The notes under the pieces: generated by a model
What the model saw: only the letters and a program-made list of their open reading frames with translations
Told to the model about the DNA's origin: nothing
Databases searched by the model: none
DNA from: Pseudomonadota bacterium
GTDB lineage: Bacteria > Desulfobacterota > Desulfobacteria > Desulfobacterales > JBDRRP01
Reading direction: 5' to 3'
Assembly: GCA_043825735.1 (NCBI GenBank)
Contig: JBDRRP010000041.1
Location: 62,001-108,693 of the forward strand
DNA length: 46,693 nt
Position numbers and translations under genes: made by a program
Shown here: positions 981-25,767 of the stretch, one piece after another
Numbering within the stretch: position 1 is the first letter of the stretch
Layout: the number at the start of each line of letters is the position of its first letter

Positions 981-1853
981 CTATAGACCGGCGATATCGA
1001 GAATGACCGGCAGGCGGTGTTCCCATCCCATGGTCTGGATCAATACACCCCGGGCCATCTCCCGCAGCCGCGCCACGATTTCTCCGGCGATCTTGACCCC
1101 CTCCATCTCCCGGTCGGCAGACTTGCGCATGCGCCGGATCATGTCCTCTGAAATGAGGCAGTCCGCCTCATGGGTGGCGATATACCGGGCCACAGCGACC
1201 GACTTGATGAGAAACACGCTTGGGATGATCGGTACGTCCAAAAAAGCGGCGGCCTCCAGAAACCGCGCGAACCGGTCCGTGTCGAATACCGGCGGGGTGA
1301 TGATAAAGCGCGCCCCGGCCGCCACCTTCTGCCCGGCCGCATCGAGCTCTTTTTCCACAGAGGCGCCGTCGGCCCAGGCGCCGATGCTGCAACCGACGGT
1401 GAATTCGGGGCTGCCGTCCAGGTCGAATCCGCCCAGGTCCTGCCCTTTTTGCAGGCTGTCGATGGCGCCGAGCAGTCCCATCTCGTCCAAGTCGTCCACC
1501 GGCTTGGCATCCGCATGATCGCTCTGGTCCATCTCTTCGCCCTGGACCACCACGATGTTCTGGATGCCAAGAACATGGGCGGCCAGCAGATCCCCTTGAA
1601 CCGCCATACGGTTGCGGTCCCTGCCGTAGCAGTGAATCATGGGCTCGAGCCCCTGCTGGAGCGCCAGCACGCCCCCGGCCAGGGCGCTCATTCGCATGAC
1701 GCCGTTGTCCATGTCCGGAATGACGACGGCGTCGACCCGCCCCTTGATGCGTCTCGCGTCGGTCACAAAGCGAGAAATGTCCACGCCCTTGGGGGTGTTC
1801 ATTTCAGCGATGACGAGAAATTCTCCAGATTGCAGTCGTTTGCGAAAACTCAT
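981..1853 (-). CDS. Methylenetetrahydrofolate reductase (MetF) family protein, divergent
   Basis: AE..TPKG, VMRMSAL, RDRNR..QGDLL, DH..AKPV.DLD and KVAAGARF motifs of MTHFR-family proteins. Confidence 0.85.
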   Translation of the reverse strand: MSFRKRLQSGEFLVIAEMNTPKGVDISRFVTDARRIKGRVDAVVIPDMDNGVMRMSALAGGVLALQQGLEPMIHCYGRDRNRMAVQGDLLAAHVLGIQNIVVVQGEEMDQSDHADAKPVDDLDEMGLLGAIDSLQKGQDLGGFDLDGSPEFTVGCSIGAWADGASVEKELDAAGQKVAAGARFIITPPVFDTDRFARFLEAAAFLDVPIIPSVFLIKSVAVARYIATHEADCLISEDMIRRMRKSADREMEGVKIAGEIVARLREMARGVLIQTMGWEHRLPVILDIAGL

Positions 1854-1877
1854 GGGCTTTCCTTCCCTTTCACCTGG

Positions 1878-2138
1878 CTAACGGTTTTCTGGTTCTTTTC
1901 TGAATCGGACCCGCGGCATCTCCGAGGTCCCACGCGGGGCGTCCGCCCGGATGCACTCACAGGAAGCCTTGGGCAGCAGCCGCAACAGATCCTGCTGCAT
2001 CTCTGCATCACAGCCGAGTATTTCCAGGGTTTCGAGCGGCTTCATCTGCTCGAAGACGAGCGAGACCTTCAACAGGGAAAACGGGGTGATGGCCCCTCTT
2101 ACATCCACCGTATAGTCAGAGCTGTTTTCCAAACGCAT
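1878..2138 (-). CDS. TusA/SirA-like sulfur-carrier-fold protein lacking the CPxP cysteine
   Basis: VDVRGAITPFSLLK...MKPLETLEIL..D pattern matches the TusA fold; ATG at 2138 with GAGGGG RBS. Confidence 0.7.
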   Translation of the reverse strand: MRLENSSDYTVDVRGAITPFSLLKVSLVFEQMKPLETLEILGCDAEMQQDLLRLLPKASCECIRADAPRGTSEMPRVRFRKEPENR

Positions 2139-2172
2139 GCCACCCCTCGTTCGTGTGAAGGGATGGCAAGAG

Positions 2173-2189
2173 AGCACGATACGGGCCAA
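2173..2189 (-). promoter_or_regulatory. Sigma-54 (-24/-12) promoter for the tusA-like/metF/hdrA operon
   Basis: Minus strand TTGGCCCGTATCGTGCT = GG-N10-GC, 35 nt upstream of the ATG; AT-rich tract at 2209-2232 and a divergent enhancer-binding protein gene nearby. Confidence 0.65.
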
Positions 2190-2319
2190 CGCGGCGCCGC
2201 AGCAGGTCGATTTTTAAAATAAAATGATAATCCGGGATGTTACCGCCGCTCGTGACGGTTTGGTGATATAACGCTTGCCATCGAAGTGTTAAACTGCTAA
2301 GCCCCAAACCTTTTTCAGG

Positions 2320-2334
2320 TGTAAAGCTTTAACA
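2320..2334. promoter_or_regulatory. Palindromic candidate upstream activator site
   Basis: TGTAAAGCTTTAACA near-palindrome ~130 bp upstream of the sigma-54 site; similar half site TGTTAAA at 2287. Confidence 0.35.
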
Positions 2335-2346
2335 GGGTGCCTTTAC

Positions 2347-3756
2347 ATGGTTGATCAGGAGCTGGATCTTTACTGGAAGACGGTAGTCAACACCATCCGC
2401 GACGGCATTATGATCGTCAATCCGCAGGGCGCCATCGTCTCGGTCAACCGGGCGCTGGAGACCATGACCGGTTACCGCCGCGAGGATCTCATCGGCCGCA
2501 CCTGCGATTTGCTCGACTGCGAGGCCTGTCATCGGCACAAACACGCCGATGCCCCCTACTGGTGCGACCTGTTCCGGGACGGGCAACTGAACACCCGCCG
2601 CTGCCAGGTCCGGAAAAAAGACGGCAACTACCTTCACGCCATCCGGAACGCATCGCTGCTCAAAAACAGCACCGGCAGCATTATCGGCGCCGTCGGCACA
2701 CTCACCGACATTTCCGAAATCATCCAAAAAGACATCCAGCTGGAAGCCTATCAGCGCGAACTGCGCAGCCAGGACGGTTTTCACGGCATCATCGGCAACG
2801 CCGCCCCCATGCAGCAGGTGTACGACCTCATCGAGAACGCGGCCCGCTCCGATGCACCGGTGATCGTCTACGGTGAAAGCGGCACCGGCAAGGAGCTGGT
2901 GGGCAGCGCCATCCACGACATCAGCGAGCGAAAGCGCGGCCCTTATGTCAAGGTGAACTGCGCCGGGCTTTCCGATTCCCTCCTGGAAAGCGAGCTGTTC
3001 GGACACGTCCGTGGTGCTTACACCGGCGCCATCCGCGATCGGGAGGGGCGGTTTGAAAAGGCATCGGGCGGCAACATTTTCCTCGACGAAATCGGCGACA
3101 TGCCGATGTCCACTCAGGTAAAAATGCTGCGCGTCCTTGAGGAAAAAGTGATCGAACGGGTCGGCGCCAGCACCCCCATCAGCGTGGATGTGCGCATCAT
3201 CTCAGCGACAAACCGGGATCTTCAGCGAATGGTGGAAGAAGGAAAATTCAGAAACGACCTGTTCTTTCGCGTGAACGTCATCCCCATCCACCTGCCGCCG
3301 CTGCGTGAGCGCATCGAAGATATTCCCCTGTTGGCAGCGGCCTTTTTCAGAAAAATCCGCCTGAAAAGCGACAAGGATCTCAAGGGAATCAGCAACGAGG
3401 CCATGGCGTCCTTTATGAATTACCAGTGGCCGGGCAATGTCCGAGAGCTCAAAAGTGCGCTCGAATACGCCTTTGTGACCTGCCACAATGCATTGATTCA
3501 GCCCCACCATCTGCCCCAGAATATCTACCGGGGCCGGCGGCCGCTGACGGGAACAAAGCGGCGCGCCCTCGATCTCAAGGCCATCGAAAAACAGGAATTG
3601 ATCGAGATGCTGGAAAAGACAGGGGGCAACCAGTCGCAGGCGGCGCAACTGCTGGGCGTCTCACGGGTGACCATCTACAACCGGATGAAACGCCATGGGA
3701 TCACCGCGAAAATGAAAGTCGTAGTCGAAGAAAAGCGAACGTTGAACATCGAATGA
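2347..3756 (+). CDS. PAS-domain sigma-54-dependent transcriptional activator (Fis-type HTH)
   Basis: N-terminal PAS; GESGTGKE Walker A, ESELFGH, GAYTGA (GAFTGA), FLDEIG, WPGNVREL, C-terminal HTH. Confidence 0.95.
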   Translation: MVDQELDLYWKTVVNTIRDGIMIVNPQGAIVSVNRALETMTGYRREDLIGRTCDLLDCEACHRHKHADAPYWCDLFRDGQLNTRRCQVRKKDGNYLHAIRNASLLKNSTGSIIGAVGTLTDISEIIQKDIQLEAYQRELRSQDGFHGIIGNAAPMQQVYDLIENAARSDAPVIVYGESGTGKELVGSAIHDISERKRGPYVKVNCAGLSDSLLESELFGHVRGAYTGAIRDREGRFEKASGGNIFLDEIGDMPMSTQVKMLRVLEEKVIERVGASTPISVDVRIISATNRDLQRMVEEGKFRNDLFFRVNVIPIHLPPLRERIEDIPLLAAAFFRKIRLKSDKDLKGISNEAMASFMNYQWPGNVRELKSALEYAFVTCHNALIQPHHLPQNIYRGRRPLTGTKRRALDLKAIEKQELIEMLEKTGGNQSQAAQLLGVSRVTIYNRMKRHGITAKMKVVVEEKRTLNIE

Positions 3757-22476: not shown

Positions 22477-22537
22477 GCCTAACCAAGCAAATTCAGCCGA
22501 CGCCAAAAAGCGGCGCGGCTGATTTGCAACGTTGGCC
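22477..22537 (+). mobile_element. Integron attC site 1
   Basis: R'' GCCTAAC (22477-83), imperfect hairpin GCAAAT(T)CAGCCG(A)CGCC-AAAAAGC-GGCG-CGGCTG-ATTTGC with two extrahelical bases, R' GTTGGCC (22531-37); 61 bp. Confidence 0.85.
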
Positions 22538-23287
22538 ATGACTCATGACACGAGATTAGCCATGACACACGAAGCATCACAAGGCGGCAGGATAGACCGC
22601 ATATGGCTGGCGTTCCTGGTGGTCGCAGGGGGTGTCTTGAGCGCGTATCTTGCAACGAGTGCTTTCGACGCAACTGTCTCTCTGTCTGGCATTCTTTGCG
22701 TTGGCCTTATCGCAATTGGCCGCCGGGAGGGGTACCTAATTGGCCTTTACAACAGCCTTTCTTATTCGATTCTGGCCTATGGCAACGGACTCTATGGAGA
22801 GGTCTACCTGAACCTTCTGTTCTTCGTCCCAACTGGCGTCATCGGTTATGTGATGTGGTCTCGCCACACGAGGCAGGACAGAACGGTTGAGATGAGGCAA
22901 CTTGGCTGGAAGCAACGGTTTGCCGTGGCAGTCATCTGCATCGCGTCCACAGTCGGACTTGGGCTCCTACTCGGGCTGAATCCTCGCCAGAATACGCCTT
23001 TCATTGACGCCACCACCAACGTGCTGTCCGTCGTGGCTACATTTCTGATGATGTGGCGGTACAAGGAGCAGTGGCTCCTGTACATCCTGCTCAACATTGT
23101 CACAATTGGTATGTGGTTTCTGCGCTTCAGAGCTGGGGGCGCAGCAGGAGATTTGATGATCCTGATGTGGTCGCTGTTCCTCTTGAATGCTCTATTTGGG
23201 TGCTGGCGTTGGCACGTGGGCACGAAGAGCCCACGGGTGGCGGCCCCCTGTGTGAACCCTGAGGGAGAAACATGCAACGTGGCCTAA
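22538..23287 (+). CDS. pnuC: Nicotinamide riboside transporter PnuC (cassette gene)
   Basis: ~7 TM; LYGEVYLN, IDATTNVLSVVATFLM..RYKEQWLLYI..N; ATG immediately after R' of attC1 (alternative ATG 22562). Confidence 0.88.
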   Translation: MTHDTRLAMTHEASQGGRIDRIWLAFLVVAGGVLSAYLATSAFDATVSLSGILCVGLIAIGRREGYLIGLYNSLSYSILAYGNGLYGEVYLNLLFFVPTGVIGYVMWSRHTRQDRTVEMRQLGWKQRFAVAVICIASTVGLGLLLGLNPRQNTPFIDATTNVLSVVATFLMMWRYKEQWLLYILLNIVTIGMWFLRFRAGGAAGDLMILMWSLFLLNALFGCWRWHVGTKSPRVAAPCVNPEGETCNVA

Positions 23288-24417
23288 CGCTGGGCAAGTT
23301 CGCCCCATTCCATCGAGGGCACCAGATGCTCGTGGAGACCGCTCTGGCCGAGGTGGACGAACTCGTCGTCATGGTCTACGCCACTGACGTGATCGACGTG
23401 CCTCTTCAGGTCCTCGCCCGATGGATACTAGAGCTTTACCCGGCAATCCGGATCATCGAGGCATGGGACGGTCCAGACGGCTACGGTGACACCCCGGAGA
23501 TCTGTCGCGAGCAGGAAGACTACATTTTCATGAAGCTCAACGGGCTGCGCATTACACATTTCTACTCCAGCGAATTCTATGGGGACCACGTCAGCCGGGC
23601 TCTTGGCGCGGTCGACCGCAGAATTGACGAGGCACGCACAGTCGTGCCTATCAGCGGGACGACTCTCCGAGAGGACTATTTTGCTGGTCGGCAGTACCTC
23701 GCCCCTGCGGTGTATGCCGACCTGATCACGAAAGTGTGCTTCATGGGCGCACCCTCGACAGGCAAGACAACCCTCGCCCGAACGATGGCTGAACGGCACA
23801 ATACCGTGTGGATGCCGGAGTACGGCGCAGAGTATTGGCTTGAGCACCATGTTGACCGACGGATCTCTCTGGATCAGTTTGAGGAAATCGCACCAGAACA
23901 CAACAGCAGGGAGGACGCGCTGACGTTGGAGTCCCGCAAGTACCTCTTTTGTGACACGAGCCCGATCACAACGTATGTCTTTGCGAAGGACTACCATGGC
24001 GTCGCCGGTCCGATTTTGACCCGATTGGCGATGGAAGCGGAGAAACGGTACGACTTGTACTTCCTCTGCGACACGGATATTCCTTATGCGGACACATGGG
24101 ATCGCAGCGGGGATCAGAAAAGGAAGTGGTTTCAGGATCAGATCGTCGGCGACCTTGCCGAAAGGATGGTACCATTTTTCAGAGTCAGCGGGACGATAGA
24201 TGAACGAGTTTTGCAGGTAGACGAAGTGCTTCGACAGTACCGGAAGTTCGGCAACGTGCTGGACATCCGACAAAGCGTGTCAGCGACGGACTGTCACCGA
24301 TCAAGACGACAGACAAGAGTGGCCAATCGGGTAGCCGGGGGTTTTTCTCCCCCAGTCCCCACACCACCTATTAAGCGGGTCCGCACTAGGCGGTTCCCAA
24401 AGAACATCGAGCCGTAG
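23272..24417 (+). CDS. nadR: NadR-like NMN adenylyltransferase / ribosylnicotinamide kinase without HTH; its last ~30 codons are read from the antisense intron
   Basis: GKFAPFHRGH (HxGH), ISGTTLR, GAPSTGKTT P-loop, PEYG, LFCDT, YDLYFL; GAGGGAG RBS. Confidence 0.85.
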   Translation: MQRGLTLGKFAPFHRGHQMLVETALAEVDELVVMVYATDVIDVPLQVLARWILELYPAIRIIEAWDGPDGYGDTPEICREQEDYIFMKLNGLRITHFYSSEFYGDHVSRALGAVDRRIDEARTVVPISGTTLREDYFAGRQYLAPAVYADLITKVCFMGAPSTGKTTLARTMAERHNTVWMPEYGAEYWLEHHVDRRISLDQFEEIAPEHNSREDALTLESRKYLFCDTSPITTYVFAKDYHGVAGPILTRLAMEAEKRYDLYFLCDTDIPYADTWDRSGDQKRKWFQDQIVGDLAERMVPFFRVSGTIDERVLQVDEVLRQYRKFGNVLDIRQSVSATDCHRSRRQTRVANRVAGGFSPPVPTPPIKRVRTRRFPKNIEP

Positions 24418-24676
24418 CTGGATAAAGTGTAGGTCACAGATCTTTGAAAAGACGGTGGCAGCTGATCGTTACACGCGGCAACGCCCTCTTGACCTGCGAA
24501 GCTTTGGCGAAGCGGGTTGCCGTCAGCTAATGTTTGTGCCTATGTCTCACGACATTGGCAGGGTTCACACATTGGGGGCTTGCTCCCCATAAGTTCACGC
24601 CCATGCCGGGCGTACACAATTCACTGGTGCTGACCCGGCCAAAAAGCGGCCGAGCTGCACAGTTCAGCCGTTCTAC
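24319..24676 (+). mobile_element. Integron attC site 2, split by the intron (24319-24325 + 24616-24676)
   Basis: Rejoined TGGCCA|ACAATTCACTGGTGCTGACCCGGCCAAAAAGCGGCCGAGCTGCACAGTTCAGCCGTTCTAC; TGGCCAAC is the exact complement of the cassette-start GTTGGCCA; shares the CCAAAAAGCGG loop with attC1. Confidence 0.8.
24326..24615 (-). mobile_element. 290-nt ORF-less group IIC-attC intron derivative
   Basis: 5' end GTACGCCCGGCATGGGCG after exon TTGT; 3' end DV GAACCGCCTAGTGCGGACCCGCTTAATAGGTGGT (CGC triad) and DVI GGGGACTGGGGGAGAAAAACCCCCGGCTACCCGAT, then exon T. Confidence 0.88.
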
Positions 24677-24713
24677 TCATTTAATTGAGTACAAGGAAAA
24701 AAGGAAGGGAGTA

Positions 24714-25115
24714 CTAACTGACCCAGTTTTCAATCTTTAAGTTCGGTACGCGATTGAATTCTTTCTCGTTATTCGTGATCAGTGTGCTGGAAAGTGAAAT
24801 TGCGTGAGCCGCGATCAGCATATCCAGAGACCCAATCGGCGTACCCTGTATTTCTAAGTGAGTTCTCAGGTCACCATAATACTGCGCGGCTTCACCGCCG
24901 AAAGGCATAATTTCCAATGGCGCAGCAAATTGTGTCAACGCCATAAGGTTCTGCTCGGGTTTTGAGCTTTTTGAGACACCGTAAAAAAGTTCACTCAAGG
25001 TAATGGATGAAATGGAAATTTCTGAAATATCAGTTTGTCTGAAACGCTCTAATACAACGGCAGGTTTCTGTTTGATGAGATAGATGCAGATATTCGTGTC
25101 GAGCATATATTTCAT
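24714..25115 (-). CDS. vapC: VapC PIN-domain toxin
   Basis: YMLDTNICIY, ITLSEL, IGSLDMLIAAHA, TNNEKEF. Confidence 0.95.
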   Translation of the reverse strand: MKYMLDTNICIYLIKQKPAVVLERFRQTDISEISISSITLSELFYGVSKSSKPEQNLMALTQFAAPLEIMPFGGEAAQYYGDLRTHLEIQGTPIGSLDMLIAAHAISLSSTLITNNEKEFNRVPNLKIENWVS

Positions 25116-25342
25116 TAAATATTATCCCTTGGATCTTGGTCGGGCTGCTCTCTGTTTTCCATAAAGTCATCGGTAAACTGATCAAGGCTGTTGACCAGTG
25201 AGGACCAGGGGTCGTCTTTTGGCAGCAAGACTACCATCTTACCGATTTTTTTGATAAAAACATCATTATCCGTAAACCTGAAATCTTTAGGTAACCTTAC
25301 GGCCTGGCTACGCCCATTTATAAATATTTTTGCGGTTTCCAT
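25115..25342 (-). CDS. vapB: VapB (AbrB/MazE-type) antitoxin
   Basis: TAKIFINGRSQAVRLPKDFRF; 1-nt overlap with vapC; GGAGG RBS. Confidence 0.95.
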   Translation of the reverse strand: METAKIFINGRSQAVRLPKDFRFTDNDVFIKKIGKMVVLLPKDDPWSSLVNSLDQFTDDFMENREQPDQDPRDNI

Positions 25343-25409: not shown

Positions 25410-25500
25410 CAGGAGGCCATCGAGATTTTCGCACTGAGGGTCAGCGCTTATAGCCTGATGAGCACGCACGATCACCTTTTGGTGCAAACACCGGATGCAA
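25410..25500 (+). pseudogene. Fragment of a REP-associated tyrosine (Y1/HUH) transposase
   Basis: QEAIEIFALRVSAYSLMSTHDHLLVQTPDA resembles the RAYT core 'AYCLMxNHxHLL.TP'; rest of the gene is absent. Confidence 0.7.
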
Positions 25501-25553
25501 AGTTTGGTCCTTATCTACTTAAGCCTGATGGCTTCGTAAAAAGTCCCAAAGTT

Positions 25554-25767
25554 CGTCACCCCGGCGACCTGTCCGCCATATTTTGCAACTGCTGAAAATC
25601 CCTGTGAGTTTTTGTACTGGAAAGGATAGGGTATCGGGCGATCTCAATGCTGATGGCGGGAGCCCTATCCGCGGTCCCATATTCTCAAGCTTCCCGGCCC
25701 CCGGCCCCCGGCCTTCCGCCGCCGAAGCTAAGGCGGATGACATGGCGGACAGGTCGTCGGGGTGACG
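25554..25767. repeat. 214-bp REP/MITE-like element with 26-bp inverted repeats
   Basis: CGTCACCCCGGCGACCTGTCCGCCAT (25554-79) versus ATGGCGGACAGGTCGTCGGGGTGACG (25742-67), 25/26 match. Confidence 0.7.

What the first reader, a model, noticed from the sequence alone, without database searches (positions are those of the whole stretch)
24326..24615. Miniature ORF-less group IIC-attC intron inserted precisely in the attC R'' box
Seen: on the bottom strand, TTGT|GTACGCCCGGCATGGGCG ... DV (CGC triad) - DVI - CCCGAT|T. Removing it restores GGCCAAC of attC2. At only 290 nt it has no RT ORF, but 24448-24407 reads FKDL*PTLYPATAR, which I recall resembles the C-terminus of IIC-attC intron proteins (unverified). 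Known: IIC-attC introns target attC bottom strands at TTGT/T. Inference: an internal-deletion derivative keeping both ends, either a relic or a non-autonomous element mobilised in trans. By breaking the AAC it would lock pnuC-nadR to the downstream vapBC.
Basis: partly seen in the sequence, partly recalled or inferred. Interest (0 to 1): 0.85.

Follow-up and report, generated by a model that had tools for sequence, protein, structure and literature searches.

The report
Dead attC-intron stump in a cassette
This is the 290-base leftover of a mobile group II intron that once jumped into an integron recombination site; it has lost its enzyme gene and most of its catalytic RNA, so it is best read as an ordinary dead relic rather than a new kind of mini mobile element.

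Summary
Window 24615->24326 (- strand, 290 nt) has the 5' end (GTACG...), domain V with a CGC triad, domain VI with a bulged A, and the 3' end (...CCCGAT) of group IIC-attC introns. It sits at TTGT|T in the R'' box of the attC that follows pnuC-nadR. Removing it restores GGCCAAC, the exact complement of G plus the cassette's first six bases.

It is a single internal-deletion derivative. About 152 nt of 5' domain I is joined to the last 135 nt. Most of DI, all of DII and DIII, and the RT are gone. Rfam's DI-DIII models hit a known intron and 7 of the other 11 loci scanned, but not this element.

The 3' part is closest to an ORF-less intron lineage of 604-938 nt. This scan has noted such lineages on other DNA.

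I found no second copy and no shared junction in its own genome, in 400 genomes of its order, or in two exact junction scans each of genome and metagenome collections. Other short copies (215, 307, 394 and 491 nt) each have a different junction. DV carries changes at two columns that are invariant in 18 of 18 relatives. No cognate RT was found in the genome.

Verdict: a dead relic, not a trans-mobilised mini-element. It probably disables the cassette's attC. The claimed "lock to vapBC" is not supported, because I found no third attC.

The parts
24326..24615 (-). Whole 290-nt relic of a group IIC-attC intron (5' end at 24615, 3' end at 24326)
   Evidence: It has the same termini as a 1914-nt intron in a class 1 integron (L038) and as 13 other both-end elements.
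24464..24615 (-). 5' segment (element 1-~152): the start of domain I, including a lineage-specific extra hairpin (element ~99-128) and a degenerate first hairpin of the DI core
   Evidence: Element 1-99 is 76-87% identical to the 5' ends of introns in relatives. Element 99-142 aligns with L044, L045 and L046.
24461..24475 (-). Deletion junction zone (element ~141-155). Everything between the first DI-core hairpin and the last ~135 nt is missing, about 450 nt relative to the 705-nt L011.
   Evidence: Two junction patterns gave 0 exact matches in the genome and metagenome collections.
24326..24460 (-). 3' segment (element 156-290): tail of DIV, DV and DVI
   Evidence: 89% identical to ORF-less L011. 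In element 156-213 it matches L011 at 51 of 58 positions, against 25-30 of 58 for the RT-bearing L012, L028, L016 and L038.
24407..24448 (-). Degenerate remnant of the last ~15 codons of the intron RT gene, with a stop inside
   Evidence: Nucleotide alignment with the RT-coding 3' regions of L012, L028 and L016. No significant tblastn match.
24363..24394 (-). Domain V: 10-pair lower helix with the CGC triad, 2-nt bulge, 3-pair upper helix, 4-nt loop. One pair is broken.
24371..24372 (-). Two substitutions in DV at columns that are G and C in 18 of 18 relatives. One breaks the G-C pair next to the bulge; the other turns U.G into U-A.
   Evidence: invariant columns G31 and C32; pair table; pair flagged non-standard.
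24328..24361 (-). Domain VI with a bulged A at 24332 (the putative branch site). There is an A.C mismatch at 24356.
   Evidence: In one search the family copies in two metagenomes read the other base at 24356 (4406.4 of 4412.4 depth in X1; 3019.5 of 3019.5 in X2).
24321..24325 (+). Left part of the split R'' box of attC2 (GGCCA)
24616..24676 (+). Rest of attC2: the AC of R'', then L'', the loop, L' and R' (G at 24670, TT at 24671-24672)
   Evidence: The bottom strand folds as a hairpin with extrahelical bases. The central loop motif is shared with attC1.
22477..22537 (+). attC1, an intact attC upstream of pnuC. Its R' is GTTGGCC, so the cassette starts at 22532.
   Evidence: Best attC-like hairpin in the window (-20.4 kcal/mol, 61 nt). 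Related sites exist in G033.
22538..23287 (+). pnuC (nicotinamide riboside transporter), first gene of the cassette
23272..24417 (+). nadR-type NMN adenylyltransferase / ribosylnicotinamide kinase. Its frame runs 92 nt into the relic (antisense). The conserved part ends near residue 323.
24714..25342 (-). vapC (24714-25115) and vapB (25115-25342), downstream neighbours on the other strand. Not shown to be a cassette.

Best explanation
A group IIC-attC intron of a lineage that had already lost its RT gene retrohomed into the folded bottom strand of the attC of a pnuC-nadR cassette, at TTGT|T in R'' and antisense to the genes. That lineage now occurs as ORF-less copies of about 600-940 nt.

One later internal deletion of about 450 nt removed the rest of domain I, which in such introns carries the exon-binding sites, together with domains II and III. 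What remains is ~152 nt of 5' DI joined to the tail of DIV, DV and DVI. Alternatively, the deletion arose at the time of insertion.

The stump cannot fold into a ribozyme, so it can neither splice nor reverse-splice, with or without a helper protein. It is now drifting.

Its lasting effect is on the host. It splits the R'' box of the attC, which probably stops integrase-mediated excision of the pnuC-nadR cassette. It also replaces the non-conserved C-terminal tail of NadR.

Shown here: identity, boundaries, target site, what is missing, single-copy status and the private substitutions. Inferred: the order of events, the catalytic death, and the effect on recombination.
For: (1) The ends and target are those of IIC-attC introns.
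- 357 plasmid records match element 212-290 beside RT/maturase genes.
- L038 is a 1914-nt intron behind blaGES-24, antisense to it, with the same ends.
- The 5' flank is TTGT in 7 of the 10 both-end elements listed, and T follows the 3' end in 10 of 10.
- The TTGT/T consensus in R'' of the attC bottom strand is stated in PMC7923331 (passages read).

(2) The core is missing.
- Rfam finds RF02001 (134.8 bits), RF01998 (61.4) and RF00029 (49.3) in L038.
- RF02001 is above threshold in 7 of the 12 sources scanned, and RF01998 in 5 of 12. Neither hits the window's own locus L001.
- Alignments show one gap between element ~152 and 156.

(3) The parent was ORF-less. Element 156-213 matches ORF-less L011 at 51 of 58 positions, against 25-30 of 58 for RT-bearing relatives.

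(4) It is single and unique.
- In its own genome the only other significant match is a 46-nt 3' fragment on another contig.
- 17 of 60 relatives and 95 of 400 genomes of the order match the ends. None matches colinearly over 1-290.
- Two junction patterns each gave 0 matches in genome contigs and in metagenome contigs.
- The other short copies (215, 307, 394 and 491 nt) have different junctions.

(5) It is decaying.
- Two DV columns that are invariant in 18 of 18 relatives are changed, and one DV pair and one DVI pair are broken.
- At the DVI site the environmental family reads the consensus base.

(6) No helper was found. The three GIIM-bearing RT genes in the genome sit in introns of another structural type (RF02005).
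Against: DV and DVI are still well kept: 89.4 bits, with 24 of 26 model pairs intact. Both termini are exact. So the copy is young, or the ends are under some constraint.

The structure rests on one metagenome-type assembly of 160 contigs.
- In the only run that holds the flanks (X1), the public contigs break at the intron termini, and none covers 24433-24555.
- One 358-nt contig is identical to 24375-24428 and then runs on unlike the window. A longer sibling, or a longer allele at this locus, may therefore exist in the sample.

Limits of the searches:
- One search scored only 2 candidates per genome.
- One search scored 150 of 2948 candidates.
- The junction scans were for exact matches only, and the own-genome records are excluded from them.
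- No empty-site allele was found for direct comparison.
- No splicing, RNA or recombination data exist.
Confidence: 0.84

Rival explanations
1. It is a non-autonomous miniature intron that is still mobile. It keeps just the ends, DV and DVI, and is spliced and reverse-spliced with protein, and perhaps RNA, supplied in trans by full-length relatives.
For: Both exact termini, DV, DVI and the branch A are kept. Several other both-end short copies exist in relatives, at 215-511 nt. ORF-less introns mobilised in trans are documented in Thermosynechococcus (PMC2882425, passages read).
Against: The documented ORF-less mobile introns keep the whole ribozyme and share one breakpoint in DIVb (PMC2882425). 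Here the DI core, DII and DIII are gone. The junction is unique, and each short relative has its own junction. Invariant DV positions are mutated. No cognate RT or intact copy was found in the genome.
Confidence: 0.04
2. It is an assembly artefact or a minor allele. The organism really carries a longer intron here, for example a ~700-nt ORF-less one, and the 290-nt form arose from mis-joining repeated intron sequence.
For: The intron termini are about 100-fold deeper than the flanks in the metagenome (about 2,600-2,800 against 20-25), so they are repeats for an assembler. No public contig covers 24433-24555. One contig is identical over 54 nt and then diverges.
Against: The two sides of the junction share no long word that a graph assembler could mis-join (read; inference). 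A false join between copies would be at homologous positions and would give a full-length chimera, not a deletion. The 5' 152 nt is one continuous natural DI segment. The contig is long and the flanks are identical in X1. The tool itself warns that a hole in contigs proves nothing.
Confidence: 0.07
3. It is a retained, useful relic. The stump is kept because it blocks the attC and so fixes pnuC-nadR in the chromosome, or because it supplies a transcription signal such as the outward promoter described in IIC-attC introns.
For: The R'' box is split. Outward promoters in the first 200 nt of IIC-attC introns are described in PMC3001079 (abstract and passages read), and the stump keeps the first ~152 nt.
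Against: No sigma-70-like promoter was found in 24200-24800 on either strand. There is no conservation of this form elsewhere to indicate selection. The private substitutions look neutral.
Confidence: 0.05

Closest known systems
Group IIC-attC introns (S.ma.I2 type; here represented by the 1914-nt intron behind blaGES-24 on plasmid AP022422, locus L038)
   Same: Same 5' and 3' termini, DV with a CGC triad, and DVI with a bulged A. Same insertion at TTGT/T in the R'' box of the attC bottom strand, antisense to the cassette gene (PMC7923331 and PMC3001079, passages read).
   Different: Lacks the RT/maturase gene, most of DI, and all of DII and DIII. It is 290 nt against 1914-1971 nt.
ORF-less IIC-attC-type introns of ~600-940 nt in relatives (L011 705 nt, L015 765, L049 809, L030 938, L051 604). 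Earlier notes of this scan describe such families on other DNA.
   Same: The 3' 135 nt is 89% identical to L011 and shares that lineage's non-coding DIV tail. Same ends and same target.
   Different: Those copies keep parts of the ribozyme core that Rfam recognises: RF02001 in L011, L015, L049 and L051, and RF01998 in L011, L015, L049 and L030. This one does not.
Truncated or fragmented group II introns in integrons and CALINs (UHB.F1, H.ha.F1 and H.ha.F2; Sonbol & Siam 2021, PMC7923331)
   Same: A degenerate intron remnant inside a cassette array. That paper notes that fragmented introns outnumber full-length ones in bacteria (passages read).
   Different: Those are 5'-truncated and keep part of the RT. 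This one keeps both ends and lost the middle.
Trans-mobilised ORF-less introns of Thermosynechococcus elongatus (Mohr et al. 2010, PMC2882425)
   Same: Derived from an ORF-containing intron by deletion, with remnants of the ORF terminus still discernible.
   Different: There, 17 copies share identical breakpoints, the deletion is confined to DIVb, the ribozyme is intact and helper proteins are present (passages read). None of these holds here.

Membership tests
Group IIC-attC intron | 5' terminus homologous to the family (GTACG/GTGCG start) | tested here: met
   Element 1-99 matches the 5' ends of introns in relatives at 76-87%. It matches L038 positions 1-42 at 86%.
Group IIC-attC intron | Domain V with a CGC triad and a 2-nt bulge | tested here: met
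   Custom model R1 scores 89.4 bits, and the triad is in register with the Rfam-annotated DV of L038. One pair is broken and two invariant columns are changed. Rfam RF00029 itself gave no hit.
Group IIC-attC intron | Domain VI with a bulged adenosine a few nt before a 3' AU/AY end | tested here: met
   The bulged A is at 24332, 6 nt before the terminal U. There is one A.C mismatch.
Group IIC-attC intron | Insertion at TTGT/T in the R'' of the attC bottom strand, antisense to the cassette | tested here: met
   The arrangement is the same as in L038. The consensus is as stated in PMC7923331.
Group IIC-attC intron | Complete ribozyme (DI core, DII, DIII) | tested here: not met
   No RF02001 or RF01998 hit, although both hit L038 and relatives. 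Alignments show the deletion.
Group IIC-attC intron | Intron-encoded RT of the IIC-attC clade | tested here: not met
   No tblastn match to the L038 RT or to closer RT C-termini. Only a ~15-codon remnant is visible in the DNA alignment.
Group IIC-attC intron | EBS1/EBS3 able to pair with TTGT/T | tested here: inconclusive
   The EBS were not mapped. The DI region covered by RF02001, where they lie in such introns (established knowledge), is absent.
Non-autonomous (trans-mobilised) ORF-less group II intron | Several copies sharing the same deletion breakpoints at different sites | tested here: not met
   (no second copy). (0 junction matches).
Non-autonomous (trans-mobilised) ORF-less group II intron | Deletion confined to DIV; ribozyme intact | tested here: not met
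Non-autonomous (trans-mobilised) ORF-less group II intron | Cognate helper RT in the same genome | tested here: not met
   The 3 GIIM matches lie in introns with RF02005-type DI. There is no further R1 match. The assembly has 160 contigs, so absence is not proven.
Integron cassette / attC (CALIN) | attC with R''/R' inverse cores, an imperfect hairpin and extrahelical bases | tested here: met
   attC1 is intact. attC2, once the insert is removed in silico, also fits. The R'' is complementary to G plus the cassette start.
Integron cassette / attC (CALIN) | Integron integrase next to the array | tested here: not met
   None was found among the 17 ORFs scanned between 11.5 and 31.5 kb of the window. 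The two TIGR02249 matches above cut-off lie on other contigs.

The most novel reading that the evidence does not exclude
Short copies that keep both ends, like this one (215-511 nt in five genomes, each with its own junction), may not be slow in-situ decay products. They could be made at the moment of retrohoming, by the RT jumping from the 3' part of the intron RNA to its 5' part. A subset that keeps DV and DVI could still be spliced with RNA and protein supplied in trans. That would be a bacterial counterpart of the degenerate mini-introns of Euglena plastids.
Probability: 0.04. Interest if true: 0.6.

Novelty: new member of a known kind. Interest (0 to 1): 0.2.

Why it matters
Mostly housekeeping. 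It shows that an apparent 'miniature intron' is a decayed copy of a known attC-homing intron lineage, so it should not be counted as a new mobile element.

It has two modest uses:
- It is a clean natural example of an attC split in R'' by a stump that can no longer leave. This is a plausible route by which a two-gene cassette (pnuC-nadR) becomes fixed in a chromosome.
- Together with the other short copies, it documents a decay series from ~1.9 kb, through ~0.6-0.9 kb ORF-less forms, down to 0.2-0.5 kb stumps that keep both termini. That series could be mined to ask how such deletions arise.

Tried and rejected
- **Rfam on the window.** There were 0 hits at gathering. Around the site there was only a spurious HCV_5BSL1 hit, E 1.8. 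I did not take this as evidence against DV, because RF00029 also misses L011 and L015 while it does find L038.
- **tblastn of RT proteins.** I ran the L038 RT and three closer RT C-termini against the element. There was nothing significant on the intron strand.
- **Exact junction scans.** Two patterns were each run on genome contigs and metagenome contigs, with 0 matches.
- **Search for an empty site.** G001, G002 and G033 lack the cassette at the DNA level. NadR homologues occur in 25 of 400 other genomes of the order. The closest (G295, 88%) ends at about residue 339 and has no attC behind it. So there is no intron-free allele to compare with.
- **Crude attC scan of the window**. It returned 12 candidates. 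Only attC1 (found on both strands) is convincing, and none lies after vapBC.
- **Promoter and terminator scan of 24200-24800**. It found 0 promoter-like sites and one weak terminator-like site that spans the 3' junction.
- **Sequencing runs**.
  - Only X1 holds most of the stretch (0.76 of words).
  - The small-share runs laid (X2, X3, X21) lay mostly on the intron termini; X2 and X3 also cover short stretches at 24786-25100.
  - There were no joints, no empty site, and no cover of 24433-24555.
  - The RNA-library contigs cover only the family-wide termini and say nothing about expression here.
- **Earlier notes of this scan**. There was nothing for this place. Several notes exist on ORF-less attC introns elsewhere.
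- **Paper look-up**. It failed on a badly formed term and was not repeated.
Full report
**Observation**

On the - strand the window reads ...AATTGT | GTACGCCCGG ... GGCTACCCGAT | TGGCC....

Rfam gave nothing for it. There were 0 matches at gathering thresholds over the whole window. Within 24000-25000 at E<=10 there was only a spurious HCV_5BSL1 match.

Homology nevertheless settles its identity.
- blastn against plasmids found 357 records. None covered 80% of the query. All matched element ~212-290, at 77-80% in the 30 rows listed. The matches lie under or beside genes annotated as group II intron RT/maturase, in class 1 integron contexts.
- The best record gave locus L038. It holds a 1914-nt intron (1666-3579) with an RT gene (2179-3510). 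The intron lies directly behind blaGES-24 and antisense to it.
- That intron has the same GTACG... and ...CCCGAT ends and the same TTGT|T flanks.
- As a control, Rfam recognises it with RF02001 (134.8 bits), RF01998 (61.4) and RF00029 (49.3).

**Relatives**

In the window's own genome the only other significant match is a 46-nt 3' fragment on another contig, G000:C83:42852-42897 (91%, E 2.8e-10). The seven remaining rows are at most 28 nt long, with E >= 0.04.

Matches to the 5' ~99 nt or to the 3' ~100-140 nt occur in 17 of 60 sampled relatives at E<=0.001. They also occur in 95 of 400 further genomes of the same order at E<=1e-8. In that second search only two candidates per genome were scored.

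Pairing the 5' and 3' matches gave 13 other elements with both ends. Their sizes in nt are:
- 215, 307, 394, 491 and 511
- 604, 705, 765, 809 and 938
- 1276, 1462 and 1914

The 5' flank ends in TTGT in 7 of the 10 elements listed, and in the 215-nt element. T follows the 3' end in 10 of 10.

**Anatomy**

Multiple and pairwise alignments show one deletion.
- Element 1-~152 is a continuous 5' piece of domain I.
- It includes a ~30-nt extra hairpin (element ~99-128) that also occurs in L044, L045 and L046.
- It also includes a degenerate copy of the first hairpin of the region that Rfam models as RF02001.
- Element 156-290 is the tail of DIV plus DV and DVI.
- Everything in between is gone. That is about 450 nt relative to the 705-nt L011, and it comprises the rest of DI plus DII and DIII.

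In line with this, I scanned 12 loci with Rfam.
- RF02001 is above threshold in 7: L011, L015, L050, L032, L051, L048 and L049.
- RF02001 is below threshold in L031 and L023.
- RF01998 is above threshold in 5: L030, L015, L011, L032 and L049.
- The window's own locus L001 has neither.

RF00029 was reported only for L023 (33.1 bits, below its cut-off). It was not reported for L011 or L015, whose DV looks intact. So the lack of an RF00029 hit on the window is not informative.

**DV and DVI**

I aligned the last 77 nt of 18 relatives (alignment A1).
- RNAalifold gives a DV with a 10-pair lower helix, a 2-nt bulge, a 3-pair upper helix and a 4-nt loop.
- It also gives a DVI with a bulged A.
- 5 of the 26 pairs show compensatory changes.

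A covariance model from A1 (R1) finds the window at 24326-24402 (-) with 89.4 bits, E 1.2e-19.

The CGC triad is in register with the AGC position of Rfam's DV in L038.

The copy is not pristine.
- At two columns that are G and C in 18 of 18 relatives, the window has A and A (24372 and 24371). One change breaks the G-C pair next to the bulge.
- DVI has an A.C mismatch at 24356.
- At 24356 the family copies in two metagenomes read the consensus base, at 4406.4 of 4412.4 depth in X1 and 3019.5 of 3019.5 in X2.

**RT remnant and parentage**

tblastn with the L038 RT, and with three closer RT C-termini, found nothing significant on the intron strand.

The nucleotide alignment does show homology. 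24448-24407 aligns with the last ~15 codons of RT genes in L012, L028 and L016, for example ...IKQLWVGIHYPATA... in L016.

In element 156-213 the window matches the ORF-less L011 at 51 of 58 positions and L047 at 41 of 58. It matches the RT-bearing L012, L028, L016 and L038 at only 25-30 of 58.

The parent was therefore already ORF-less. This scan has noted ORF-less attC-homing IIC families on other DNA. I saw the 604-938-nt forms independently.

**Is it a mobile mini-element?**

The documented trans-mobilised ORF-less introns keep the whole ribozyme. They share identical breakpoints within DIVb across 17 copies, and they have helper proteins (PMC2882425, passages read). None of that holds here.
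- There is no second copy in the genome (in one search, 150 of 2948 candidates were scored).
- There is no colinear match in 460 other genomes.
- Two junction patterns gave 0 exact matches in genome contigs and in metagenome contigs.
- The other short copies have their own, different junctions. Two of them (307 and 491 nt) even lack the 5' strand of DV.
- The genome's three GIIM-bearing RT genes lie in introns with RF02005-type DI, not the RF02001 type of this lineage.

An RNA without the DI core, DII and DIII cannot form the active site or the exon-binding sites. This rests on established knowledge of group II introns and was not tested here. A helper protein alone could therefore not move it.

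**Context**

An intact attC (attC1, 22477-22537) lies just upstream of pnuC. Its R' is GTTGGCC, so the cassette starts at 22532.

Removing the element in silico gives an attC2 whose bottom strand folds as an imperfect hairpin. Its R'' is GGCCAAC, the exact reverse complement of G plus the cassette's first six bases. That is what a circularisable cassette should show. The two attCs share the central loop motif, and related attCs occur in G033.

The cassette (22532-24670) carries pnuC and a nadR-type gene.

No integron integrase is near. None of the 17 ORFs scanned between 11.5 and 31.5 kb is one. The two TIGR02249 matches above cut-off are on other contigs. This is therefore a two-attC cluster without an integrase.

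A crude attC scan found no attC after vapBC. The statement that the insert 'locks pnuC-nadR to vapBC' is thus not supported. The more defensible inference is that a split R'' disables attC2 and so immobilises the pnuC-nadR cassette.

The nadR frame runs 92 nt into the relic. The part matched by family models ends near residue 323 of 381. The closest homologue (88%, G295) stops at about residue 339, in another context and without an attC. Only a non-conserved tail is affected.

**Reads**

One run (X1) holds 0.76 of the sampled words, and its flanks are identical to the window.
- Its public contigs break at the intron termini.
- The termini are about 100 times deeper than the flanks (about 2,600-2,800 against 20-25).
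- Loose ends start at 24325 and at 24616-24620.

The boundaries of the element are therefore also the boundaries of an abundant environmental repeat.

No contig covers 24433-24555. One 358-nt contig is identical over 24375-24428 and then diverges. This leaves room for a longer sibling or a longer allele, and it is the main caveat. I judge a mis-join unlikely, because the two sides of the junction share no long word. That judgement is inference.

**Verdict**

The element is a dead, single-copy stump of a known attC-homing intron lineage. It is of low interest in itself.

The decay series, and the ORF-less 0.6-0.9-kb relatives, are the more interesting background. This scan has already noted them elsewhere.

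The supplements of the cited papers were not consulted. Léon & Roy 2009 and Quiroga 2008 were not read; I know them only through citations in PMC7923331 and PMC3001079.

Noticed in passing
G000:C83:42852-42897 (L010 4853-4898, - strand): A second relic of the same intron lineage in this genome. Only the last 46 nt survive (the 3' strand of DV plus DVI), at 91% identity and R1 41.1 bits. T follows the 3' end, and AT-rich, cassette-like genes lie beside it.
   Followed up: partly
L011 931-1635, L015 1599-835, L049 2704-1896, L030 5389-6326, L051 1298-1901: ORF-less IIC-attC-type introns of 604-938 nt in five genomes. They keep parts of the ribozyme core that Rfam recognises: RF02001 in L011, L015, L049 and L051, and RF01998 in L011, L015, L049 and L030. 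L011, L015 and L030 share a conserved non-RT DIV. This looks like a spreading non-autonomous lineage. Earlier notes of this scan describe the same on other DNA.
   Followed up: partly
L048 2225-2439; L031 2091-1785; L023 1206-1599; L032 1872-2362; L050 1941-1431: Five further short both-end copies (215, 307, 394, 491 and 511 nt) in other genomes. The four compared in alignments (215, 307, 394 and 491 nt) each have a different internal junction. Retention of both termini recurs, and how such deletions arise is open.
   Followed up: partly
window 24310-24391 and 24556-24637: In groundwater and marine-sediment metagenome contigs, the intron termini are about 100 times deeper than the flanking genes. 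The loose ends begin exactly at the intron boundaries. The family is very abundant in these samples.
   Followed up: partly
window 24375-24428: A 358-nt contig of run X1 (depth 32) is identical over these 54 nt and then runs on unlike the window. This could be a longer sibling copy or allele that is not in the assembly.
   Followed up: no
window 24255-24417: The nadR-type frame has no stop where its closest homologue ends (about residue 339). It reads on through the attC half-site into the relic, giving a 381-residue product with an unrelated tail.
   Followed up: partly
window 25458-25595: A short frame reading ...LMSTHDHLLVQTP... recalls the conserved core of IS200/RAYT-type Y1 transposases. 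This is recalled from memory and was not searched. It may be a gene fragment marking the edge of the cassette cluster.
   Followed up: no
G000:C147, C51, C24 (L052, L053, L054): Three other group II introns with RT genes in the genome belong to a different structural type (RF02005 in L053 and L054). The one on C24 gives its RT match in three pieces in different frames, so it is probably broken.
   Followed up: partly
L010 4229-4338 (G000:C83): A TPP riboswitch (75 bits) upstream of an ABC-type transport operon. An ordinary feature.
   Followed up: no
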